A stretch of 30,272 bases of DNA. It comes from Escherichia phage S164. The notes beneath the pieces are model-generated. The model was not told the origin of the DNA. It saw only the letters and a list, made by a program, of their open reading frames with translations, and ran no database searches. Positions 1,224 to 15,049 of this stretch are shown here, piece after piece (within the stretch, counting starts at the first letter, position 1; every line of letters begins with the position of its first letter). The position numbers were made by a program, and so were the translations under genes. Where the stretch lies: sequence record ON239131; one strand, given 5' to 3'.

Positions 1224-2995
1224 CAGTAAAACTCCAGAATGGTGGATGTCAGCGGAGTGCTGATACCGGCGGTGAGTGGCTCATTTAACAGGGCGTGCAT
1301 GGTCGCCCAGGCGAGGTCGGCGTGGCTGGCTTCCTCGCTGCGGCTGGCCTCATAGGTGGCGCTGCGTCCGCTGCTGGTCATGGTCTTGCGGATAGCCATA
1401 AACGAGCTGGTGATGTCGGTGGCGCTGACGTCATATTCCAGACAGCCACGGCGGATAACGTCTTTTGCCTTGAGCACCATTGCGGTTTTCATTTCCGGCG
1501 TGTAGCGGATATCGCGCGCGGCGGGATAGAACGAGCGCACGAGCTGGAACACACCGACACCGAGGCCGGTGGCATCAATCCCGATGTATTCAACGTTATA
1601 TTTTTCGGTGAGTTTGCGGATGGATTCTGCCTGGGTGGCAAAGTCCATGCCTTTCCACTGGTGACGCTCAAGGATCCTGAATTTGCCACCGGCCACCACC
1701 GGCGGTGCCAGCACCACGCATCCGGCGCTGTCGCCACGGTGTGACGGGTCGTAACCAATCCATACCGGGCGGGAGCCGAACGGATTTGCGGCAAACGGTG
1801 CATAGTCTTCCCATTCTTCCAGCGTATCGACCATGCAGCGTTGCAGCTCCTCGAACGGGAACACCGACGCTTTGTCGTCAACAAATTCACACATGAACAG
1901 GTTTTTAAAATCGTCGGCGCTGTTTTCACGTTTGAGCTGCTCAATGTCGAACAGCGTGCAGCCGCCTTTCAGCGCGTCCTCAATGGTGACAATCTGCCGC
2001 CACTGGCCGTCCGCACAGAGAAGCCCACCGGCAAGGGCGTTATGACTGACGTCGATTTCCACGCGTTCGGCGGCGCTGGCGCGTCCCCGGTTGAACAGTT
2101 CACCCGACCAGAACGGGTAGGCGTCGTGCGCCAGCGTGGACGGGGTGGAGAAATAGGTCGAGCGCAGGTGACTCTGTGAGGCCATACCTGATGCCACCTT
2201 ACGCAGTACCTGAAAATTCGGGATCCAGAAAATCTCGTCGACGTACAGGTCGCCGTTATGGCTCTGTGCGGTGTTGGAGTTGGTGCCGAGAAAAATCAGT
2301 TTTGCACCGTTATTGCCCAGGACAATCGGGTCACCGGTCAGGTCAACGTCAACCAGCCGGGCAAAGGCAATGATGTATTCGCGGAACACATACGCCTGCG
2401 TTTTACTGGCCGACAGAAAAATCTGGTTATGGCCGGTTTTCAGGGCGCGCAGCAGCGCCTCGCGGGAAAAATAAAACGTCGCGCCAATCTGGCGGGATTT
2501 CAGGATATCGCGGATGCGGTGCTCAAGCCCGGCGCGATACCAGTGCAACTGATAGTCGAAAGACTGCTCAAAGAAAATCTGCTCCAGCTTTTCGATGGCC
2601 TCGTCACTGAAAAAATTCTTTTTCGGTTTGCGACGCCCGCCTTTGTTGCGGTTAGCGACGTTCGGATTAAGGTCTGCCTCGTTGCCGGTCTGACTGTAAC
2701 GGTTGACCCGTGCCAGTCGTTCAATCTGGCGTCCGAGCAGGTCAATTTCCTTGAAGTCACCGCCGGTTTTCTGCGGTTTGATGATGAGCTGGGTCAGCCT
2801 CGCTTCCAGACTCATTTCGACACGGCTGATGGGGGCAACGCTGTCCCAGCCGTCGCGCTGTTTCCAGCTCTGCACCGTCGGGCGTTTCATCTGCAACATG
2901 GCGGCAATCTGCGGCACGGAAAATCCCTGCCAGTACAGCAGCGCCGCCTGACGACGCGGGTCGTGTAAAAGAGTGGTGTCTGTGGTGATGGTCAT
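1223..2995 (-). CDS. P: Terminase large subunit (ATPase/nuclease)
   Basis: The track ORF is 600 aa. I chose the internal ATG at 2995 (MTITTDTTLL...), which has a GAGG Shine-Dalgarno sequence upstream and gives 590 aa, as in P2 gpP. Confidence 0.92.
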   Translation of the reverse strand: MTITTDTTLLHDPRRQAALLYWQGFSVPQIAAMLQMKRPTVQSWKQRDGWDSVAPISRVEMSLEARLTQLIIKPQKTGGDFKEIDLLGRQIERLARVNRYSQTGNEADLNPNVANRNKGGRRKPKKNFFSDEAIEKLEQIFFEQSFDYQLHWYRAGLEHRIRDILKSRQIGATFYFSREALLRALKTGHNQIFLSASKTQAYVFREYIIAFARLVDVDLTGDPIVLGNNGAKLIFLGTNSNTAQSHNGDLYVDEIFWIPNFQVLRKVASGMASQSHLRSTYFSTPSTLAHDAYPFWSGELFNRGRASAAERVEIDVSHNALAGGLLCADGQWRQIVTIEDALKGGCTLFDIEQLKRENSADDFKNLFMCEFVDDKASVFPFEELQRCMVDTLEEWEDYAPFAANPFGSRPVWIGYDPSHRGDSAGCVVLAPPVVAGGKFRILERHQWKGMDFATQAESIRKLTEKYNVEYIGIDATGLGVGVFQLVRSFYPAARDIRYTPEMKTAMVLKAKDVIRRGCLEYDVSATDITSSFMAIRKTMTSSGRSATYEASRSEEASHADLAWATMHALLNEPLTAGISTPLTSTILEFY

Positions 2996-3168
2996 GAATA
3001 CCTCGCCGTGATGAATACACGGCAAGGCTACTGAGTCGCGCCCCGCGATTCGCTAAGGTGCTGTTGTGTCAGTGATAAGCCATCCGGGACTGATGGCGGA
3101 GGATGCGCATCGTCGGGAAACTGATGCCGACATGTGACTCCTCTAATCACTATTCAGGACTCCTGACA
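2996..3168. promoter_or_regulatory. Divergent late-promoter region (PP leftward, PO rightward)
   Basis: 173-nt gap between the divergent P and O genes, which is where the Ogr-dependent PP and PO promoters lie in P2. At 3064..3085 it contains TTGTGTCAGTGATAAGCCATCC, which aligns 16/22 with a motif upstream of FI (14958..14979). Exact -10 elements and transcription starts were not resolved. Confidence 0.55.
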
Positions 3169-4023
3169 ATGGCAAAAAAAGTCTCAAAATTCTTTCGTAT
3201 CGGCGTTGAGGGTGACACCTGTGACGGGCGTGTCATCAGTGCGCAGGATATTCAGGAAATGGCCGAAACCTTTGACCCGCGAGTCTATGGTTGCCGCATT
3301 AACCTGGAACATCTGCGCGGCATCCTGCCTGACGGTATTTTTAAGCGTTATGGCGATGTGGCCGAACTGAAGGCCGAAAAGATTGACGATGATTCGGCGC
3401 TGAAAGGCAAATGGGCGCTGTTTGCGAAAATCACCCCGACCGATGACCTTATCGCGATGAACAAGGCCGCGCAGAAGGTCTATACCTCAATGGAAATTCA
3501 GCCGAACTTTGCCAATACCGGCAAATGTTATCTGGTGGGTCTGGCCGTCACCGATGACCCGGCAAGCCTCGGCACGGAATACCTGGAATTCTGCCGCACG
3601 GCAAAACACAACCCCCTGAACCGCTTCAAATTAAGCCCTGAAAACCTGATTTCAGTGGCAACGCCTGTTGAGCTGGAATTTGAAGACCTGCCTGAAACCG
3701 TGTTCACCGCCCTGACCGAAAAGGTGAAATCCATTTTTGGCCGCAAACAGGCCAGCGATGACGCCCGTCTGAATGACGTGCATGAAGCGGTGACCGCTGT
3801 TGCTGAACATGTGCAGGAAAAACTGAGCGCCACTGAGCAGCGCCTCGCTGAGATGGAAACCGCCTTTTCCGCACTTAAGCAGGATGTGACTGACAGGGCG
3901 GATGAAACCAGCCAGGCATTCACCCGCCTGAAAAACAGTCTCGACCACACCGAAAGTCTGACCCAGCAGCGCCGCAGCAAGGCCACCGGTGGTGGCGGTG
4001 ACGCCCTGATGACGAACTGCTGA
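3169..4023 (+). CDS. O: Capsid scaffolding protein
   Basis: Start taken at MAKKVSKFFRIG, inside track ORF 3103..4023, giving 284 aa as in P2 gpO. The C-terminal half looks coiled-coil and the gene lies just before the major capsid gene. Confidence 0.9.
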   Translation: MAKKVSKFFRIGVEGDTCDGRVISAQDIQEMAETFDPRVYGCRINLEHLRGILPDGIFKRYGDVAELKAEKIDDDSALKGKWALFAKITPTDDLIAMNKAAQKVYTSMEIQPNFANTGKCYLVGLAVTDDPASLGTEYLEFCRTAKHNPLNRFKLSPENLISVATPVELEFEDLPETVFTALTEKVKSIFGRKQASDDARLNDVHEAVTAVAEHVQEKLSATEQRLAEMETAFSALKQDVTDRADETSQAFTRLKNSLDHTESLTQQRRSKATGGGGDALMTNC

Positions 4024-4081: not shown

Positions 4082-5155
4082 ATGCGCCAGGAAACCCGCT
4101 TTAAATTTAATGCCTACCTGTCCCGTGTTGCCGAACTGAACGGCATCGACGCCGGTGATGTGTCGAAAAAATTCACCGTTGAACCGTCGGTCACCCAGAC
4201 CCTGATGAACACCATGCAGGAGTCCTCTGATTTTCTGACCCGCATCAACATTGTGCCGGTCAGCGAAATGAAAGGGGAAAAAATTGGTATTGGTGTCACC
4301 GGCTCCATCGCCAGCACCACCGACACCGCCGGTGGCACCGAGCGTCAGCCGAAGGACTTCTCGAAGCTGGCGTCCAGTAAGTACGAATGCGACCAGATTA
4401 ACTTCGATTTTTATATCCGCTACAAAACGCTGGACCTGTGGGCGCGTTATCAGGATTTCCAGCTCCGTGTCCGTAACGCCATTATCAAACGTCAGTCCCT
4501 TGATTTAATCATGGCCGGTTTTAACGGCGTGAAGCGTGCCGAAACCTCTGACCGCAGCAGCAATCCGATGCTGCAGGATGTGGCGGTCGGCTGGCTGCAG
4601 AAATACCGCAATGAAGCCCCGGCGCGCGTGATGAGCAAGGTTACTGACGAGGAAGGTCACACCACCTCTGAGGTCATCCGCGTGGGTAAGGGCGGTGATT
4701 ATGCCAGCCTCGATGCACTGGTGATGGATGCGACCAACAACCTGATTGAGCCGTGGTATCAGGAAGACCCTGACCTTGTGGTGATTGTGGGGCGTCAGTT
4801 ACTGGCGGACAAGTATTTCCCCATCGTTAACAAGGAGCAGGACAACAGCGAAATGCTGGCCGCTGACGTCATCATCAGCCAGAAACGCATCGGTAACCTG
4901 CCGGCGGTACGCGTCCCGTACTTCCCGGCGGATGCGATGCTCATCACGAAGCTGGAAAACCTGTCCATCTACTACATGGATGACAGCCATCGCCGCGTGA
5001 TTGAGGAAAACCCGAAACTCGACCGCGTGGAGAACTACGAGTCAATGAACATTGATTACGTGGTGGAAGACTACGCCGCCGGTTGTCTGGTGGAAAAAAT
5101 TAAGGTCGGTGACTTCTCCACACCGACTAAAGTGACCGCAGAGCCGGGAGCGTAA
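4082..5155 (+). CDS. N: Major capsid protein
   Basis: 357 aa, with the same length and position as P2 gpN. An AGGAAAAA Shine-Dalgarno-like sequence lies upstream. Confidence 0.93.
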   Translation: MRQETRFKFNAYLSRVAELNGIDAGDVSKKFTVEPSVTQTLMNTMQESSDFLTRINIVPVSEMKGEKIGIGVTGSIASTTDTAGGTERQPKDFSKLASSKYECDQINFDFYIRYKTLDLWARYQDFQLRVRNAIIKRQSLDLIMAGFNGVKRAETSDRSSNPMLQDVAVGWLQKYRNEAPARVMSKVTDEEGHTTSEVIRVGKGGDYASLDALVMDATNNLIEPWYQEDPDLVVIVGRQLLADKYFPIVNKEQDNSEMLAADVIISQKRIGNLPAVRVPYFPADAMLITKLENLSIYYMDDSHRRVIEENPKLDRVENYESMNIDYVVEDYAAGCLVEKIKVGDFSTPTKVTAEPGA

Positions 5156-11328: not shown

Positions 11329-11932
11329 TTCGCGCCTGCTGCCGACCGGCTCATCACCGCTTGAGGTCGCCGCCGCAAAAGCCTGTGCGGAAATTGAAAA
11401 AACGCCGGTCAGTATTCGTGAGCTGTGGAACCCGGACACCTGCCCGGCAAATCTGCTGCCGTGGCTGGCGTGGTCATTTTCGGTTGACCGCTGGGATGAT
11501 AAGTGGCCGGAAGCGACAAAACGCGCTGTTATCCGCGATGCGTATTTCATTCACTGCCATAAGGGCACTATAGGCGCAATCCGGCGTGTGGTGGAGCCGC
11601 TCGGCTATCTGATTGAGGTGAGGGAGTGGTGGCAACTCAACGAGGAGCCGGGGACGTTCCGCATCGTTGTTGGCGTGCTTGAGCAGGGTATTACCGAGGA
11701 AATGTATCAGGAGCTGGAGCGTCTCGTTGCTGATGCAAAACCTGCAAGCCGCCATCTGACGGGACTGGCTATCAGTTTAAGTACAACCGGCAACATTTTT
11801 GCCGGTGCGGGATGCTATCACGGCGACGCCCTGACGGTTTATCCCTACACCCCGGAGGCCATTATTGTCGGAGGGGATTATTTCCCGGCCTCGGCCATTC
11901 ATTTAATTGATAACCTGAGAGTAAACGCATGA
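11321..11932 (+). CDS. I: Baseplate / tail-fibre attachment protein I (variant C-terminus)
   Basis: The first ~100 residues match my memory of P2 gpI. From about EWW onward the sequence diverges, and the protein is 203 aa rather than the 176 aa I recall for P2. Confidence 0.85.
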   Translation: MSDSRLLPTGSSPLEVAAAKACAEIEKTPVSIRELWNPDTCPANLLPWLAWSFSVDRWDDKWPEATKRAVIRDAYFIHCHKGTIGAIRRVVEPLGYLIEVREWWQLNEEPGTFRIVVGVLEQGITEEMYQELERLVADAKPASRHLTGLAISLSTTGNIFAGAGCYHGDALTVYPYTPEAIIVGGDYFPASAIHLIDNLRVNA

Positions 11933-13344
11933 CAGTGAAATACTACGCCATTCTGACTAATCAGGGCGCGGCACGGCTGGCTAACGCGACGATGCTCGGA
12001 AGTAAGCTGAATCTGACGCAAATGGCCGTTGGTGATGCGAATGGTGTCTTGCCGACACCAGACCCGGCACAGACAAAGCTGATTAATCAGAAACGCATTG
12101 CACCGCTGAATCTTCTGAGTGTTGACCCGAACAACCAGAGCCAGATTATTGCGGAGCAAATCATCCCTGAGAACGAGGGCGGATTCTGGATCCGTGAGAT
12201 TGGGCTTTATGATGATGAAGGCGTACTCATTGCGGTGGCGAACTGCCCGGAAACGTACAAACCGCAGTTGCAGGAAGGCAGTGGTCGTACCCAGACTATC
12301 CGCATGATTCTGGTTGTCACGAACACCGAAGCCATCACGCTGAAAATCGACCCGTCGGTGGTACTGGCGACCCGTAAATACGTGGATGATAAGGTCCTGG
12401 AATTAAAGCTGTATGTGGATGACCAGATGAGAAACCACATTGCCGCACAGGATCCTCATACCCAGTATGCACAGAAACATAATCCGACATTTACCGGAGA
12501 ACCAAAAGCGCCGACGCCTGCCGCAGGAAATAACACCACGCGGATTGCGACTACTGCGTTTGTTCAGGCCGCTATTACCGCTCTGATTAACGGTGCGCCA
12601 GCCACGCTGGACACACTGAAAGAAATTGCCGCAGCCATTAACAATGACCCGAAATTCAGTACCACCATTAACAATGCGCTGGCACTAAAAGCCCCGCTGT
12701 CGAGTCCGGCACTCACCGGAACGCCAACAGCACCTACTGCGGCACAGTCGGTCAACAATACACAGATTGCCACCACGGCTTTTGTGAAATCAGCAATTGC
12801 GGCAATGGTGGGTTCTGCCCCTGCGGCACTGGATACACTGAATGAACTGGCGGCGGCGCTGGGGAATGACCCTAACTTTTCAACAACAGTGCTTAATGCA
12901 CTGGCAGGTAAACAACCGCTGGACAATACGCTGACTAATTTGAGTGGAAAGGATGTAGCTGGTCTTCTCGCATACCTTCAATTGGGAGAAGCGGCAAAAC
13001 GTAATGTCGGCACCGGTGCAAACCAGATACCGGACATGAACAGTTTTACGTCAGGAAGTACGACAACAGCAGACTGGTACAAGTTACCTGGTGGGTTGCT
13101 TATTCAGTCAGGGATTAATGCGGTTGGTTATATTGGTTCGCCGTTTACTATCGGTCTTCCGGTTGCATTTTCGAACGCCAATTACCGCATAGTTGCCAGT
13201 TATGACAACGCGAGAGCTAACGCAACCTACGGTTTTGCAATGTCTGCCCTCCCGTCAACTGCATCAGCATTCACAATTAACTCAAGTTCAAATGCATCAG
13301 TCGGGCCGGTTTACGCTTACTGGATTGCAATCGGTAAATACTAA
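11929..13344 (+). CDS. H: Tail fibre protein, currently expressed form (constant part 11929..12978 plus variable tip 12979..13344)
   Basis: 471 aa. The N-terminus carries the conserved GGFWIREIGLYDDEGVLIAVAN motif of P2 H / Mu S / P1 S-type fibres. There are two tandem fibre repeats, and an invertase crossover site lies inside the gene at 12965..12990. Confidence 0.9.
   Translation: MTVKYYAILTNQGAARLANATMLGSKLNLTQMAVGDANGVLPTPDPAQTKLINQKRIAPLNLLSVDPNNQSQIIAEQIIPENEGGFWIREIGLYDDEGVLIAVANCPETYKPQLQEGSGRTQTIRMILVVTNTEAITLKIDPSVVLATRKYVDDKVLELKLYVDDQMRNHIAAQDPHTQYAQKHNPTFTGEPKAPTPAAGNNTTRIATTAFVQAAITALINGAPATLDTLKEIAAAINNDPKFSTTINNALALKAPLSSPALTGTPTAPTAAQSVNNTQIATTAFVKSAIAAMVGSAPAALDTLNELAAALGNDPNFSTTVLNALAGKQPLDNTLTNLSGKDVAGLLAYLQLGEAAKRNVGTGANQIPDMNSFTSGSTTTADWYKLPGGLLIQSGINAVGYIGSPFTIGLPVAFSNANYRIVASYDNARANATYGFAMSALPSTASAFTINSSSNASVGPVYAYWIAIGKY
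12481..12921 (+). repeat. Tandem ~73-aa tail-fibre repeat inside H (2 copies: 12481..12699 and 12700..12921)
   Basis: NPTFTGEPKAPTPAAGNNTTRIATTAFVQAAITALINGAPATLDTLKEIAAAINNDPKFSTTINNALALKAPL aligns with SSPALTGTPTAPTAAQSVNNTQIATTAFVKSAIAAMVGSAPAALDTLNELAAALGNDPNFSTTVLNALAGKQPL. Confidence 0.85.
12965..12990 (+). promoter_or_regulatory. Left 26-bp DNA-invertase crossover site (hix/gix/cix-like) inside H
   Basis: TTCTCGCATACC-TT-CAATTGGGAGAA. It has TTCTC...GAGAA ends and a central TT, and it matches the reverse complement of the site at 14316..14341 at 17 of 26 positions. It resembles the Hin/Gin half-site TT(A/C)TCnnAAACC. Confidence 0.75.
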
Positions 13345-13356
13345 AAGGCAAATATC

Positions 13357-13779
13357 ATGGGTGAAACAGATTATATTTTCAGTGCGTTCCTGAATGGTTT
13401 TTTACCGCTGGCGTGGAAAGAAGAGAAAGAGGCAACAGGTTCGTGGCCTGATGACGCAATTGAAATAAGCTATGAAGATTATTTGAAGTTTACGACCGAT
13501 GCGCCGAAGGGAAAAATATTGGGTTCGGTTGACGGGCGACCGGCATGGGTTGATATCCCACCGCCGACACATGAAGAACTGATTGCCAGTGCAGAAGCAA
13601 CAAGATTAAGACTGAAGGCTAATGCAGATGCTGAAATCGGCTGGCGACAGGATGCCGTTGATGCGGGCATTGCGACGGACGAGGAAACCGCCATACTCGC
13701 CGAGTGGAAAAAATACCGGGTCTTGCTGATGCGCGTCGACACAGCAAAACCCGTATGGCCTACGCTTCCGACTGCATAA
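13357..13779 (+). CDS. Tail fibre assembly chaperone (Tfa; functional analogue of P2 G / Mu U)
   Basis: 140 aa. The C-terminal part (ATDEETAILAEWKKYRVLLMRVDTAKPVWPTLP) carries the W-K-x-Y-R-x-x-L-x-R-V-D signature shared by lambda Tfa, P2 G and Mu U. It lies directly after the fibre gene. Confidence 0.85.
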   Translation: MGETDYIFSAFLNGFLPLAWKEEKEATGSWPDDAIEISYEDYLKFTTDAPKGKILGSVDGRPAWVDIPPPTHEELIASAEATRLRLKANADAEIGWRQDAVDAGIATDEETAILAEWKKYRVLLMRVDTAKPVWPTLPTA

Positions 13780-13945
13780 TATCAATTAATATCGGTTCGC
13801 CGTTCTCATCGACGGCGAGCATTTTCCCAGCCGGTATTTCTGTTGCGGTAAAAAACCAGTTATCATCCGGCAGTTCTACGGCCCCTTCAGTGCTATGAAT
13901 GCCGGGGATAACTTCATTAAGTGTCTCAGGATTAAAAAGGCGCAT
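13760..13945 (-). CDS. Alternative tail fibre assembly protein, N-terminal domain only (61 aa; truncated or remnant)
   Basis: Start taken at MRLFNPETLNEV..., with the ATG at 13945 overlapping the end of the alternative fibre tip. It ends ...ENGEPILIDIMQSEA*, exactly where full-length Tfa proteins continue into the conserved C-terminal domain. Its last 20 nt overlap the 3' end of the plus-strand tfa. Confidence 0.6.
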   Translation of the reverse strand: MRLFNPETLNEVIPGIHSTEGAVELPDDNWFFTATEIPAGKMLAVDENGEPILIDIMQSEA

Positions 13946-14327
13946 AGCGAGCACTCCAATAAAAACCGTCAGCGGATGTTGTTCCATCAGATCGTAATAC
14001 AAGAAAAGTAGCTTTTGTTGCATCAGTTAAATCAGTTATGACCATCGGTACCCTGACCTTATAAGGGGTTGCTGATGACAATAACAGCGGAGTGGTAGTG
14101 ATAACCTGTGCAGGAGCAGGCAGAGAAATCGGATAATAAACCGCAGCATTTCCCGATATGTTAGCCACAGCATTTCCCCACACCTCTATAGTGCCATCGC
14201 TCCAGATTCGGTATTTACCATTCGCATTCGAGCCTGTTTTAGTCACCACGGCACATTTATCTGTATCGGTATTAACGTTACCAATCAGTGCCAATTTTCC
14301 ACTGGTATTTCCCGCTTCTGCTAAACG
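13932..14327 (-). CDS. Silent alternative tail-fibre C-terminal tip (Hv'), with no start of its own; expressed only after inversion
   Basis: The minus-strand frame reads RLAEAGNTSGKLALIGNVNTDTDK...FYWSARYAPF* (131 codons) from the crossover site. It is in the same codon phase as H at the left site, so inversion would produce a 481-aa fibre. Confidence 0.75.
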   Translation of the reverse strand, partial: RLAEAGNTSGKLALIGNVNTDTDKCAVVTKTGSNANGKYRIWSDGTIEVWGNAVANISGNAAVYYPISLPAPAQVITTTPLLLSSATPYKVRVPMVITDLTDATKATFLVLRSDGTTSADGFYWSARYAPF

Positions 14328-14341
14328 AACGTTTATGAAAA
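14316..14341 (-). promoter_or_regulatory. Right 26-bp DNA-invertase crossover site (inverted relative to the left site)
   Basis: On the minus strand: TTTTCATAAACG-TT-CGTTTAGCAGAA. The half-sites TTTTCATAAACG and TTCTGCTAAACG are near-symmetric and fit the Hin/Gin/Cin consensus. The central TT is identical to that of the left site. Confidence 0.8.
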
Positions 14342-14396
14342 TGCAGAGATAACGGGTAACTGGCATCATCTCCGGTTTTTATTCAGGGGGATGCTC

Positions 14397-14990
14397 ATGC
14401 TTATTGGCTATGTACGCGTGTCAACAAATGACCAGAACACGGAATTGCAGCGTAACGCGCTGGAGTGCGCGGGATGTGAGCGGATTTTTGAGGACAAAAT
14501 CAGCGGCACGAAGTCCGACCGACCGGGACTGAAAAAACTGCTCAGAACATTATCAGCAGGTGACACTCTGGTAGTCTGGAAGCTGGACAGGCTGGGGCGT
14601 AGTATGCGGCATCTGGTCATTCTGGTTGAGGAACTGCGCGAACGCGGCGTTAATTTTCGCAGCCTGACAGATGCTATTGATACCAGCACGCCGATGGGGC
14701 GTTTTTTCTTTCATGTGATGGGTGCCCTGGCTGAAATGGAGCGAGAACTCATTGTCGAGCGGACACGCGCCGGACTGGAAGCGGCCAGAGCTAAAGGTCG
14801 TATTGGTGGCAGACGTCCGAAACTCACCGCGAGTGAGTGGGAGCAGGCCGGGCGGTTGCTGGCTGCAGGGGAATCACGTCAACGCGTGGCACTGATTTTT
14901 GATATTGGCCTGTCCACGCTCTATAAAAAATTCCCCGCCTCAGTGACAAAAAATAAATTGTGTCATCCCTTAGCCAACCGGGACAAATAG
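14397..14990 (+). CDS. Serine DNA invertase (Hin/Gin/Cin/Pin family)
   Basis: MLIGYVRVSTNDQNT...DRPGL...GDTLVVWKLDRLGRSM...MGRFFFHVMGALAEMERELIVERT...GRIGGRRPKL...STLYKKFPA is collinear with Gin and Hin. The catalytic Ser is present in the YVRVST motif. I preferred the second ATG (14397) because of its spacing from the GGGGG Shine-Dalgarno sequence. Confidence 0.93.
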   Translation: MLIGYVRVSTNDQNTELQRNALECAGCERIFEDKISGTKSDRPGLKKLLRTLSAGDTLVVWKLDRLGRSMRHLVILVEELRERGVNFRSLTDAIDTSTPMGRFFFHVMGALAEMERELIVERTRAGLEAARAKGRIGGRRPKLTASEWEQAGRLLAAGESRQRVALIFDIGLSTLYKKFPASVTKNKLCHPLANRDK

Positions 14991-15049
14991 CCTGACATCT
15001 CCGGCACAACTGAAAATATCACTCACCCATTAACCACGGAGTTAAACGG
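14958..15049 (+). promoter_or_regulatory. Candidate Ogr-dependent late promoter PF region
   Basis: TTGTGTCATCCCTTAGCCAACC at 14958..14979 is shared with the PO and PV upstream regions. An AT-rich -10-like sequence, AAATATCAC, lies around 15014..15022, about 50 nt downstream. This is consistent with P2 late promoters, which carry an upstream activator site near -55. The region precedes FI. Confidence 0.5.

What the first reader, a model, noticed from the sequence alone, without database searches (positions are those of the whole stretch)
12965..14990. Hin/Gin-type invertible host-range cassette grafted into a P2 backbone at the H-G-Z/fun position, with crossover sites in identical codon phase
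P2 itself has a fixed H-G tail-fibre pair followed by Z/fun. This genome instead has a Mu G / P1 C-like switch.

The left site is TTCTCGCATACC-TT-CAATTGGGAGAA (12965..12990, inside H). The right site, read on the minus strand, is TTTTCATAAACG-TT-CGTTTAGCAGAA (14316..14341). The two sites are inverted relative to each other and share the central TT.

In both, the central TT occupies codon positions 2-3 (cTT in H, gTT in the silent frame). Inversion would therefore fuse the 350-aa constant part of H in frame to a different 131-aa tip (RLAEAGNTSGKL...ARYAPF), giving 481 aa instead of 471 aa.

The adjacent 197-aa recombinase has the catalytic YVRVST serine motif. The segment between 13780 and 14370 is visibly more AT-rich than its flanks. 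The cassette also displaces the Z/fun cargo locus.
Basis: partly seen in the sequence, partly recalled or inferred. Interest (0 to 1): 0.6.

Follow-up and report, generated by a model that had tools for sequence, protein, structure and literature searches.

The report
Pin-type invertible tail-fibre switch, P2-like phage
This P2-like phage carries an ordinary, well-known kind of DNA flip-switch: a Pin/Gin-family invertase can turn a 1.35-kb segment around and so swap the receptor-binding tip of the tail fibre, and the same segment is found flipped both ways in related prophages.

Summary
Two 26-bp Din-family crossover sites (12965-12990 and 14316-14341) lie in inverted orientation. They are the only such sites in the window: 20.1 and 26.4 bits against a matrix built from published hix/gix/cix/pix/mix/bix sites, next best 7.4, and 0 of 200 shuffles reach 20.1. 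In-silico inversion at the central TT fuses the 350-aa constant part of H in frame to a 131-aa alternative tip, giving 481 aa. The 197-aa recombinase is 87% identical to PinE of e14 and 76-78% to Gin and Cin. Decisive comparative evidence: the inner 1349 bp (12979-14327) is 99.3-100% identical in other E. coli prophages, in both orientations, with exactly the predicted hybrid sites. Invertase cassettes at the H/G-Z/fun position are annotated in many Peduoviruses, and inversion in P2-like prophages has been shown experimentally. Two extras are worth noting. The identical segment sits in at least five different tail-module backbones, and identity stops at the crossover dinucleotide, which suggests invertase-mediated cassette exchange. 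The alternative tip is paired with a conserved 61-aa protein rather than a canonical Tfa.

The parts
11929..12978 (+). Constant N-terminal part of tail fibre gene H (350 codons, ending ...LLAYL; the last codon cTT holds the crossover TT)
   Evidence: ORF 11929-13344. Pfam Phage_tail_fib matches residues 1-150, E=3e-62. The junction phase was computed.
12965..12990 (+). Left crossover site (pix-like): TTCTCGCATACC-TT-CAATTGGGAGAA, core TT at 12977-12978
   Evidence: 20.1 bits on the published-site matrix, second best in the window, and 0 of 200 shuffles reach it. It forms arm 1 of the longest inverted repeat.
12979..14327 (.). Invertible segment (1349 bp between the two core dinucleotides)
   Evidence: 99.3-100% identical in 11 other loci (L007 and L012-L021) and in both orientations, with identity ending at the core TT/AA. 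L006 is the window's own source contig.
12979..13344 (+). Expressed variable tip Hv (121 aa, QLGEAAKRNVG...IGKY)
   Evidence: Pfam Gp53-like_C matches residues 385-469 of H, E=1e-12. PHROG tail-fibre and virion-structural families match.
13357..13779 (+). Canonical tail fibre assembly gene (140 aa) cognate to the expressed tip
   Evidence: Pfam Caudo_TAP E=5.8e-31; phrog_188 E=2.5e-46.
13760..13945 (-). 61-aa gene immediately after the silent tip (MRLFNPETL...); probable tip-specific assembly factor ('mini-Tfa'). The mechanical 87-aa ORF runs to 14023.
   Evidence: Called as 61 aa in L006, L007 and others. It belongs to a family of 56-66-aa proteins (a few hits reach 86 aa) across Enterobacterales at 58-97% identity, with 12 invariant residues. 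It has no Pfam hit. The AF2 model has pLDDT 92.3, and its best fold hit is a 60-aa 'tail fiber assembly protein' of Pantoea phage LIMEzero at a marginal E=0.067.
13932..14327 (-). Silent alternative tip Hv' (131 aa, RLAEAGNTSGKL...ARYAPF, plus stop codon), promoterless in this orientation
   Evidence: In-silico inversion gives a 481-aa H'. A natural 481-aa protein, P0057, carries this tip and is 85% identical overall at 100% coverage; its tip residues are identical to the window's. The Gp53-like_C hit is weak, E=5e-4 and below the Pfam cut-off.
14316..14341 (+). Right crossover site: + strand TTCTGCTAAACG-AA-CGTTTATGAAAA, core AA at 14328-14329. The outer half is identical to the published pixR half.
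   Evidence: 26.4 bits, the best in the window. pixR sequence from PMC3241671 Table 3.
14397..14990 (+). Din-family serine DNA invertase (197 aa; catalytic Ser9 in YVRVST)
   Evidence: Pfam Resolvase E=8e-53 and HTH_7 E=5.5e-13. Gin structures 3UJ3 and 4M6F match at E=6.5e-95 and 1.7e-93 over residues 1-182. It is 87% identical to PinE, 78.5% to Cin and 76% to Gin.
14415..14486 (+). Putative Fis-dependent recombinational enhancer (nt 19-90 of the invertase gene)
   Evidence: It aligns without gaps to the annotated enhancer of P1 cin (NC_005856 31678-31749): 56 of 72 identical to cin and 59 of 72 to pinE. G-N13-C cores lie at nt 22-36 and 71-85, as in gin. Synonymous-codon identity is 0.61 here against 0.42 in the rest of the gene across 154 gene pairs. 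This is inferred, not shown.
14958..15049 (+). P2 late promoter pF region (activator-binding site and leader of FI), overlapped by the 3' end of the invertase gene
   Evidence: Alignment to P2 NC_001895 17555-17651; homology at 97.6% resumes here.

Best explanation
This is a Pin/Din-family site-specific inversion switch for tail-fibre host range, of the same kind as Mu G/Gin, P1 C/Cin and e14 P/Pin, carried by a P2-like phage (Escherichia phage S164 or a near-identical prophage).

Proposed mechanism. The 197-aa serine invertase binds as dimers to the two inverted 26-bp sites. By analogy with Hin, Gin and Cin, it synapses them on a Fis-bound enhancer lying in the first ~90 bp of its own gene. 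It makes 2-bp staggered cuts at the central TT/AA through Ser9, rotates one half of the tetramer by 180 degrees, and religates.

Consequence. This inverts 12979-14327. In the orientation present here, the late operon reads H(1-350) + 121-aa tip + a canonical 140-aa Tfa. After inversion it reads H(1-350) + an unrelated 131-aa tip + a 61-aa accessory protein. A lysogen population would therefore release virions with two receptor specificities.

Shown: the sites, the frames, the protein family, and the natural occurrence of both orientations with precise hybrid sites.

Inferred: Fis/enhancer dependence, activity in this particular phage, and that the two tips bind different receptors.
For: - The sites are unique and highly significant.
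- The fusion is in frame.
- The invertase is 87% identical to PinE and has an intact YVRVST motif. The residues that PMC3798978 describes as specific to Fis-dependent invertases are conserved: Hin K47/R48/K51 correspond to K46/K47/R50 here, and Q151/R154/L155 correspond to the Q, R and L of 'EQAGRLL'.
- L007 and L017 (E. coli) hold the same 1349 bp at 100% identity, inverted relative to the H constant part and the invertase. Their sites, TTCTCACATACC-TT-CGTTTAGCAGAA and TTCTCCCAATTG-AA-CGTTTATGAAAA, are the exact predicted products.
- L016 (orientation as here) and L017 (inverted) have flanks 99.3% and 98.4% identical, so they are essentially the same prophage lineage in both states.
- Of the 10 distinct places read for the identical Tfa, 6 are in one orientation and 4 in the other.
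- The half-site CAATTGGGAGAA occurs in 18 IMG/VR contigs, joined to constant-side or to invertase-side outer halves.
- Inversion in P2-like prophages has been shown experimentally elsewhere (PMC4272514).
Against: - No read-level data exist for this phage. Its own backbone (S164 and GCA_019368225.1) is seen only in the present orientation.
- The left site is the weaker one: its inner half has AATT where the consensus has AAAC.
- No sigma-70-like promoter was found upstream of the invertase by the simple scan.
- Conservation of the enhancer region is confounded by the strongly conserved N-terminal coding sequence.
- The alternative arm lacks a canonical Caudo_TAP chaperone.
- The two tips' receptors are unknown.
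Confidence: 0.88

Rival explanations
1. Locked or fossil cassette. The architecture is that of an inversion switch, but in this phage it no longer flips, because the left site is weak, the invertase is poorly expressed or the enhancer is defective. The silent arm would then be dead cargo.
For: Only one orientation is on record for this exact backbone. The left site scores 6 bits lower and departs from the AAAC core. No promoter-like site was found for the invertase.
Against: The invertase ORF is intact with all the conserved residues checked. L014 has outer half-sites identical to the window's on both sides and the same inner ones. Its close relatives L016 and L017 are seen in both states. The segment is 100% identical across elements, which implies very recent mobility.
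Confidence: 0.07
2. One-armed switch. Inversion occurs, but only the present orientation makes a working fibre. The alternative arm, a 131-aa tip plus a 61-aa protein without the conserved Tfa C-domain, is non-functional. The switch would then act as fibre ON/OFF rather than as a host-range alternation.
For: The 61-aa protein has no Pfam match and only a weak phrog_188 hit, E=3.8e-4. The alternative tip hits Gp53-like_C below the Pfam cut-off. No solved structure resembles the 61-aa model.
Against: The 61-aa family keeps its length (mostly 56-66 aa) and 12 invariant residues down to 58% identity across many genera, which indicates purifying selection. The model is confident, with pLDDT 92. Its best viral fold hit is a 60-aa annotated tail fibre assembly protein (marginal). 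Related pairs of tip plus 65-aa ORF sit in the expressed position in other prophages (L008-L011). The 481-aa H' is the expressed form in L007 and L017.
Confidence: 0.1
3. Chance inverted repeat between convergent tail-fibre genes, or a multi-site shufflon (Min-like) rather than a simple two-site switch.
For: None beyond the general abundance of short inverted repeats (42 pairs in 3.2 kb). A three-site shufflon does exist in one P2-like prophage of EPEC (PMC4272514).
Against: The two sites score 20-26 bits against 7.4 for the next best, and no shuffle reaches them. Only two sites exist. Natural inversion products have exact junctions.
Confidence: 0.01

Closest known systems
P segment / PinE invertase of the defective prophage e14 (E. 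coli K-12)
   Same: It has the closest invertase, at 87% identity over 184 aa. The invertase-proximal half-site CGTTTATGAAAA is identical to pixR. The layout is the same: constant fibre part, tip + Tfa, convergent Tfa' + tip', then an invertase outside the segment. Inversion of e14 has been shown by sequencing and PCR (PMC4272514).
   Different: The backbone differs: a Mu-like baseplate in e14 against P2 here. The tips differ. e14 has two canonical Tfa genes (tfaP, tfaE), whereas here one arm has a 61-aa non-Caudo_TAP protein. The inner half-sites differ (GGTTTGGGAGAA in e14 against CAATTGGGAGAA and CGTTTAGCAGAA here).
Invertase cassettes of other Peduoviruses (pro483, 'P2' of E. coli O157:H43 T22, Cartapus, 500465-1, Klebsiella P2-like phages; also Fels-2/Fin, from my own knowledge)
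   Same: The position is the same, between I/H and FI, replacing G-Z/fun. The invertase of pro483 is 95.9% identical and the backbone 97.4% identical. pro483 and the T22 phage carry what the gene order indicates is one cassette in opposite orientations. The literature notes a DNA invertase as frequent in this hotspot.
   Different: The variable cargo here (both tips, the Tfa N-domain and the 61-aa gene) has no close DNA match in 50,697 phage records or in 5,426 complete E. coli genomes. pro483 and its relatives have the canonical inner half-site GGTTTGGGAGAA and two canonical Tfa genes.
Mu G segment / Gin and P1 C segment / Cin
   Same: These are the founding examples of the mechanism. They have a constant Sc part with alternative Sv/Sv' tips and U/U' chaperones, a 26-bp gix/cix site with a 2-bp core, and an enhancer inside the invertase gene (annotations). 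Gin is 76% and Cin 78.5% identical. The Gin structures 3UJ3 and 4M6F are the best solved relatives.
   Different: Their segments are larger (3.0 and 4.2 kb against 1.35 kb). The gix core is GA rather than AA. In P1 the invertase is on the other side of the segment. The phage backbones differ.
Hin / H segment of Salmonella
   Same: It belongs to the same invertase family and has the same Fis/enhancer-dependent invertasome mechanism (PMC3798978). The residues contacting Fis and the enhancer are conserved.
   Different: Hin flips a promoter, not a coding tip, and hin lies inside the segment. Identity is only about 65%, and the Hin sequence used was recalled from memory.

Membership tests
Din family of Fis-dependent serine DNA invertases (Hin, Gin, Cin, Pin, Min) | Small serine recombinase: N-terminal catalytic (resolvase) domain plus C-terminal HTH, about 185-200 aa | tested here: met
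   Pfam Resolvase matches residues 3-135 (E=8e-53) and HTH_7 residues 138-181 (E=5.5e-13); the protein is 197 aa.
Din family of Fis-dependent serine DNA invertases (Hin, Gin, Cin, Pin, Min) | Catalytic serine in the Y-x-R-V-S-T motif, and high identity to founding members | tested here: met
   MLIGYVRVST with Ser9. Identity is 87% to PinE, 78.5% to Cin and 76% to Gin. Gin 3UJ3 matches at E=6.5e-95.
Din family of Fis-dependent serine DNA invertases (Hin, Gin, Cin, Pin, Min) | Two 26-bp sites (12-bp imperfect half-sites around a 2-bp core) matching the dix consensus, in inverted orientation, with the same core dinucleotide | tested here: met
   26.4 and 20.1 bits on the matrix of 13 published sites, on opposite strands, both with core AA/TT; 0 of 200 shuffles reach the lower score.
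Din family of Fis-dependent serine DNA invertases (Hin, Gin, Cin, Pin, Min) | Recombinational enhancer with two Fis sites, in cis (inside the 5' end of the invertase gene in gin, cin and hin) | tested here: inconclusive
   nt 19-90 aligns ungapped with the annotated cin enhancer (56/72), and G-N13-C cores lie at the same positions as in gin. Synonymous sites are more conserved here than in the rest of the gene, 0.61 against 0.42. The coding constraint and the non-independent gene pairs prevent a firm call, and Fis binding was not tested.
Din family of Fis-dependent serine DNA invertases (Hin, Gin, Cin, Pin, Min) | Invertase-specific residues that contact Fis and the enhancer (Hin K47, R48, K51; Q151, R154, L155) | tested here: met
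   K46, K47 and R50, and the Q, R and L of 'EQAGRLL', are conserved in the alignment. The residue list comes from PMC3798978.
Din family of Fis-dependent serine DNA invertases (Hin, Gin, Cin, Pin, Min) | The segment actually inverts | not testable with these tools
   There are no reads for this phage. Comparative surrogate: the identical segment occurs in both orientations with exact hybrid sites in related and unrelated prophages.
Invertible tail-fibre host-range cassette (Mu G / P1 C / e14 P type) | A constant N-terminal fibre part outside the segment, two alternative C-terminal tips inside it in opposite orientation, fused in frame at the crossover | tested here: met
   350 + 121 aa against 350 + 131 aa, with the same codon phase. 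The natural 481-aa counterpart P0057 exists.
Invertible tail-fibre host-range cassette (Mu G / P1 C / e14 P type) | Each tip followed by its own Tfa (Caudo_TAP) chaperone gene | tested here: not met
   The forward arm has a canonical Tfa (Caudo_TAP, E=5.8e-31). The reverse arm has only a 61-aa protein with no Pfam match. The architecture is otherwise the same, so this is a variant arm and not grounds to exclude the mechanism.
Peduovirus (P2-like phage) | P2 gene order and sequence: V-W-J-I-H ... FI-FII-E-T, with pF promoter | tested here: met
   97.4% identity over 92% of 25 kb to pro483, and 96-98% to other Peduovirus records. The Pfam families are in P2 order. The pF region is 97.6% identical to P2.
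Caudo_TAP tail fibre assembly proteins (for the 61-aa gene) | Conserved C-terminal Tfa domain (PF02413) | tested here: not met
   There is no Pfam hit. phrog_188 matches only at E=3.8e-4, to the profile's middle part. Fold searches of the PDB are negative. I therefore do not file it as a Tfa; its chaperone role is inferred from position only.

The most novel reading that the evidence does not exclude
The invertible segment is itself a mobile cassette that invertases swap between unrelated prophages.

The same 1349 bp (99.3-100% identical) sits in at least five backbones:
- the S164-type P2 phage of this window;
- a second P2 lineage whose flanks are 82-95% identical to the window's;
- a third P2-like lineage with a Min-like outer half-site;
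- an e14/Mu-like tail module;
- a third kind of myovirus baseplate module.

One of the flanking invertase genes (L012) is only about 56-58% identical at the DNA level to the window's. In every case identity stops within 0-4 nt of the 2-bp crossover core on both sides. This is the footprint expected of double site-specific recombination (a natural 'recombinase-mediated cassette exchange') and not of homologous recombination.

It would give clean, recent, base-pair-resolution support for Sandmeier's 1994 hypothesis that Din invertases drive horizontal exchange of tail-fibre tips.

A second, smaller novelty: a conserved 61-aa, non-Caudo_TAP accessory protein may be a new minimal class of tail-fibre chaperone.
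Probability: 0.55. Interest if true: 0.45.

Novelty: new member of a known kind. Interest (0 to 1): 0.25.

Why it matters
For this phage, it means lysates should be a mix of two host-range types. It also means the deposited annotation ('tail protein', 'hypothetical protein') misses a second, silent receptor-binding tip, which is relevant to anyone using S164-like phages or P2-type tailocins for typing or therapy.

More generally the finding is ordinary. It adds one more tip pair to a long-known class of switches.

The by-product may be of wider use. An identical segment in several unrelated tail modules, bounded at the crossover dinucleotides, is a good natural test case for whether invertases move receptor-binding modules between co-resident prophages, and not only flip them. 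It also suggests a simple way to re-target P2, Mu or e14-type tails by cassette exchange.

Tried and rejected
- Exact look-up of the predicted 481-aa H' found nothing. The homology search then found P0057, which carries the same tip on an H constant part that brings overall identity to 85%.
- No place in 5,426 complete E. coli genomes covers 80% or more of 12700-14700 or of the inner segment. The phage collection has only short Tfa C-domain matches. The orientation census therefore had to come from draft assemblies, through the look-up of encoding contigs.
- The genome-contig scan for the inner left end found nothing. The viral-contig scan found 18 contigs that share only the half-site plus the 'QLGEAAKR' linker, not the segment. 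That is useful for the half-site but not for the census.
- A third crossover site (shufflon) is rejected: the next-best score is 7.4 bits.
- I considered that the 61-aa ORF is a truncated Tfa pseudogene, because phrog_5400 is a 145-position profile of which only positions 1-62 match. I rejected this because the homologues found (down to 58% identity in the aligned set) are almost all 56-66 aa.
- The two tips are not detectably similar to each other (BLASTP E=8.6).
- The promoter scan found no sigma-70-like site for the invertase.
- The literature search for 'S164' was unproductive, and PMC1347348 (Fin of Fels-2) is not held.

Full report
**What the window is.** The 30.3-kb window is a P2-like (Peduovirus) genome. 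92% of its first 25 kb matches Escherichia phage pro483 at 97.4% identity, and other Peduovirus records match at 96-98%. The H protein is identical to 'tail protein, Escherichia phage S164' (URP83679.1), and the same DNA lies on a contig of E. coli assembly GCA_019368225.1. The gene order around the finding is V-W-J-I-H, then a Tfa gene, two minus-strand ORFs, a recombinase, and then FI-FII-E-T.

**Check of the observation: the sites.** The repeat finder returns them as the longest inverted repeat of the region. So as not to rely on a remembered consensus, I built a position weight matrix from 13 published hix, gix, cix, pix, mix and bix sites (PMC3241671, Table 3).
- The window scores 26.4 bits at 14316(+) and 20.1 bits at 12965(-).
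- The best unrelated position scores 7.4 bits.
- None of 200 shuffled windows reaches 20.1 bits.
- The two sites score best on opposite strands, so they are inverted.
- Both have the core AA/TT, and there is no third site.

**Check of the observation: frames and composition.**
- Inverting 12979-14327 in silico joins H residues 1-350 (...LLAYL) in frame to RLAEAGNTSGKL...ARYAPF, giving 481 aa against 471 aa.
- The core TT is at codon positions 2-3 in both frames.
- The composition claim is only half right. The silent arm is 44-48% GC against 51-58% for the invertase and backbone, but the expressed tip is equally AT-rich.

**The recombinase.**
- The 197-aa protein has Resolvase and HTH_7 domains.
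- It matches the solved Gin invertase structures 3UJ3 and 4M6F at E=6.5e-95 and 1.7e-93 over residues 1-182.
- In an alignment with genes fetched from Mu, P1 and e14, it is 87% identical to PinE, 78.5% to Cin and 76% to Gin.
- Ser9 sits in YVRVST.
- The residues that McLean et al. (PMC3798978) describe as uniquely conserved in Fis/enhancer-dependent invertases are all kept. These are the basic helix-B residues Hin 47, 48 and 51, and Gln151, Arg154 and Leu155.
- The invertase-proximal half-site CGTTTATGAAAA is identical to the published pixR half-site.

The system is therefore Pin-type rather than specifically Hin- or Gin-type.

**The enhancer.** P1's record annotates the Cin enhancer at nt 19-90 of cin. 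The same stretch of the window's gene (14415-14486) aligns without gaps, with 56 of 72 bases identical to cin and 59 of 72 to pinE. It has G-N13-C Fis-core-like 15-mers at nt 22-36 and 71-85, the same positions as in gin. This stretch also encodes the most conserved part of the protein, so I compared synonymous codons at conserved residues across 19 invertase genes. Identity is 0.61 in codons 7-30 against 0.42 in codons 31-135, pooled over 154 non-independent pairs. This is consistent with an overlapping cis element, but I rate it as inconclusive.

**Evidence that the segment really flips.** The predicted H' is not in the protein collection as an exact sequence. A homology search, however, found a natural 481-aa E. 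coli protein (P0057) that carries the same tip, 85% identical overall at 100% coverage.
- Its locus (L007) has H', then the 61-aa gene, a convergent 140-aa Tfa, an uncalled silent tip, and an invertase.
- BLAST shows the inner 1349 bp is 100% identical to the window but inverted, while the H constant part and the invertase side are only 91.7% and 87.0% identical.
- The sites in L007 are TTCTCACATACC-TT-CGTTTAGCAGAA and TTCTCCCAATTG-AA-CGTTTATGAAAA. These are exactly the half-site combinations that inversion at the core would create.

Looking up the identical 140-aa Tfa gave ten distinct places, six in the window's orientation and four inverted. L016 (forward) and L017 (inverted) have flanks 99.3% and 98.4% identical, so they are one prophage lineage in both states. 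In addition, the unusual inner half-site CAATTGGGAGAA occurs in 18 IMG/VR contigs, joined to either constant-side or invertase-side outer halves.

I take this as strong comparative evidence for precise, recent inversion at these sites. It is not a demonstration for this particular phage, whose own backbone is on record in one orientation only.

**Position in the P2 genome.** Reference P2 has H, G, a terminator, fun(Z) on the opposite strand, the pF activator site, and FI. In the window, homology to P2 resumes at about 14958-14970, inside the pF activator-binding site, and continues at 97.6% into FI. The last 16 codons of the invertase overlap that region.

**Comparison with what is known.** This arrangement is common.
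- pro483, the 'P2' of E. coli O157:H43 T22, MET_P1_103_31, Cartapus, 500465-1 and a large set of Klebsiella Peduoviruses carry annotated sets of tail fibre, two Tfa genes, second fibre piece and DNA invertase at the same place.
- By gene order, pro483 and the T22 phage look like one cassette in opposite orientations.
- A 2024 preprint on phage hotspots states that a DNA invertase is often seen in the Z/fun hotspot, with inversion of the adjacent genes.
- Goldberg et al. detected phase variation by inversion in two P2-like prophages of EPEC by whole-genome sequencing, one of them a three-site shufflon (PMC4272514).

The finding is therefore a new member of a known kind. What is particular to it is the cargo. 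The inner segment has no close DNA match in 50,697 phage records or in 5,426 complete E. coli genomes.

**The alternative arm.** The two tips are unrelated by BLASTP (E=8.6). Both hit Pfam Gp53-like_C, the silent one only weakly at E=5e-4. The forward tip is followed by a canonical Caudo_TAP protein. The silent tip is followed, with a 14-nt overlap, by a 61-aa gene (13760-13945, minus strand) with no Pfam match.
- It is not a decayed Tfa. Its homologues across Escherichia, Citrobacter, Salmonella, Yersinia, Enterobacter, Hafnia, Cronobacter, Kosakonia and Erwinia are almost all 56-66 aa.
- In the 30-sequence alignment, which spans 58-93% identity to the window's protein, 12 residues are invariant.
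- AlphaFold gives a confident small beta-rich fold with pLDDT 92.3 that has no PDB relative.
- Its best viral match is a 60-aa annotated 'tail fiber assembly protein' of Pantoea phage LIMEzero (E=0.067, TM 0.54), which is only suggestive.

I infer a tip-specific assembly factor from position and co-inheritance. This is not shown.

**A by-product: the segment as a mobile cassette.** The same 1349 bp, with 0-10 differences, lies in at least five backbones:
- the S164-type P2 phage;
- a second P2 lineage (L014, L016, L007, L017);
- a third P2-like lineage (L019), whose H-side half-site equals a p15B mix half;
- an e14/Mu-like tail module (L012, L020);
- a module with Sheath_initiator, Baseplate_J and Phage_Wedge1 genes (L013, L015, L018, L021).

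Outside the segment, the non-P2 loci give no BLAST match to the window's flanks. The L012 invertase gene is only about 56-58% identical at the DNA level to the other invertase genes. On both sides, identity ends within 0-4 nt of the core dinucleotide.

Homologous recombination cannot easily explain breakpoints at a 2-bp core between otherwise dissimilar flanks. Double site-specific recombination between cassettes of co-resident prophages can. The idea that invertases drive tail-fibre exchange goes back to Sandmeier (1994), as cited in PMC3945230 and PMC8986868, so this is support for an old hypothesis and not a new concept. I could not test co-residence of two copies in one genome.

**Verdict.** It is a Pin-family invertible tail-fibre switch in a P2-like phage, probably active. 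It is ordinary in kind, with an uncharacterised pair of tips and a non-canonical 61-aa accessory gene. Interest is low to moderate.

Noticed in passing
window 12979-14327; loci L007, L012-L021: The 1349-bp invertible segment is 99.3-100% identical in at least five different tail-module backbones (three P2-type lineages, one e14/Mu-like, one Sheath_initiator/Phage_Wedge1 type). Identity ends within 0-4 nt of the crossover core on both sides. This looks like invertase-mediated cassette exchange between prophages.
   Followed up: partly
window 13760-13945 (-): A 61-aa gene follows the silent tip. It belongs to a conserved family of mostly 56-66-aa proteins across Enterobacterales, has no Pfam domain, a confident AF2 model (pLDDT 92) and no PDB fold match. 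It may be a minimal tail-fibre assembly factor.
   Followed up: yes
window 13395-13408 and 13845-13858: A perfect 14-nt inverted repeat (TGGTTTTTTACCGC / GCGGTAAAAAACCA) lies inside the invertible segment, one arm in the Tfa gene and the other in the 61-aa gene. By my rough estimate (not a tool result), about 0.02 such pairs would be expected by chance in 3.2 kb. Its significance is unknown.
   Followed up: no
window 14943-14990 and 14958-15049: The invertase carries a 16-aa C-terminal extension (SVTKNKLCHPLANRDK, shared with pro483). Its codons overlap the P2 pF activator-binding site and promoter region, so the 3' end of the gene and the late promoter of the FI operon are superimposed.
   Followed up: partly
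L001 (KC618326, 'P2' of E. coli T22) 4398-4439: The invertase-proximal site of this phage is the exact reverse complement of its H-side site (TTCTCCCAAACCAAGGTATGCGAGAA). It is followed by GACC and then the usual outer half CGTTTATGAAAA, as if a copy of the H-constant end had been inserted. Its invertase gene is also short at 495 nt.
   Followed up: no
L018 3122-3204: In this copy of the segment, all 10 differences from the window cluster in the first 82 nt of the forward tip. This is a small mosaic patch inside an otherwise identical cassette.
   Followed up: no
IMG/VR loci L026/L037 and L034/L042: Two pairs of viral contigs come from the same IMG genome (2791354791 and 2924970400). Each carries a tip starting with the same half-site and linker (TT|CAATTGGGAGAAGCGGCAAAACG) next to different outer half-sites, so co-resident prophages can share this junction motif.
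   Followed up: no
L004 (E. coli EC11) 2638-3350: Another P2-like cassette has a 77-aa 'hypothetical protein' in place of a second Tfa, after a gp53-like silent tip that begins QLGEAAKRDVG. Short non-Tfa genes after such tips are therefore recurrent.
   Followed up: partly
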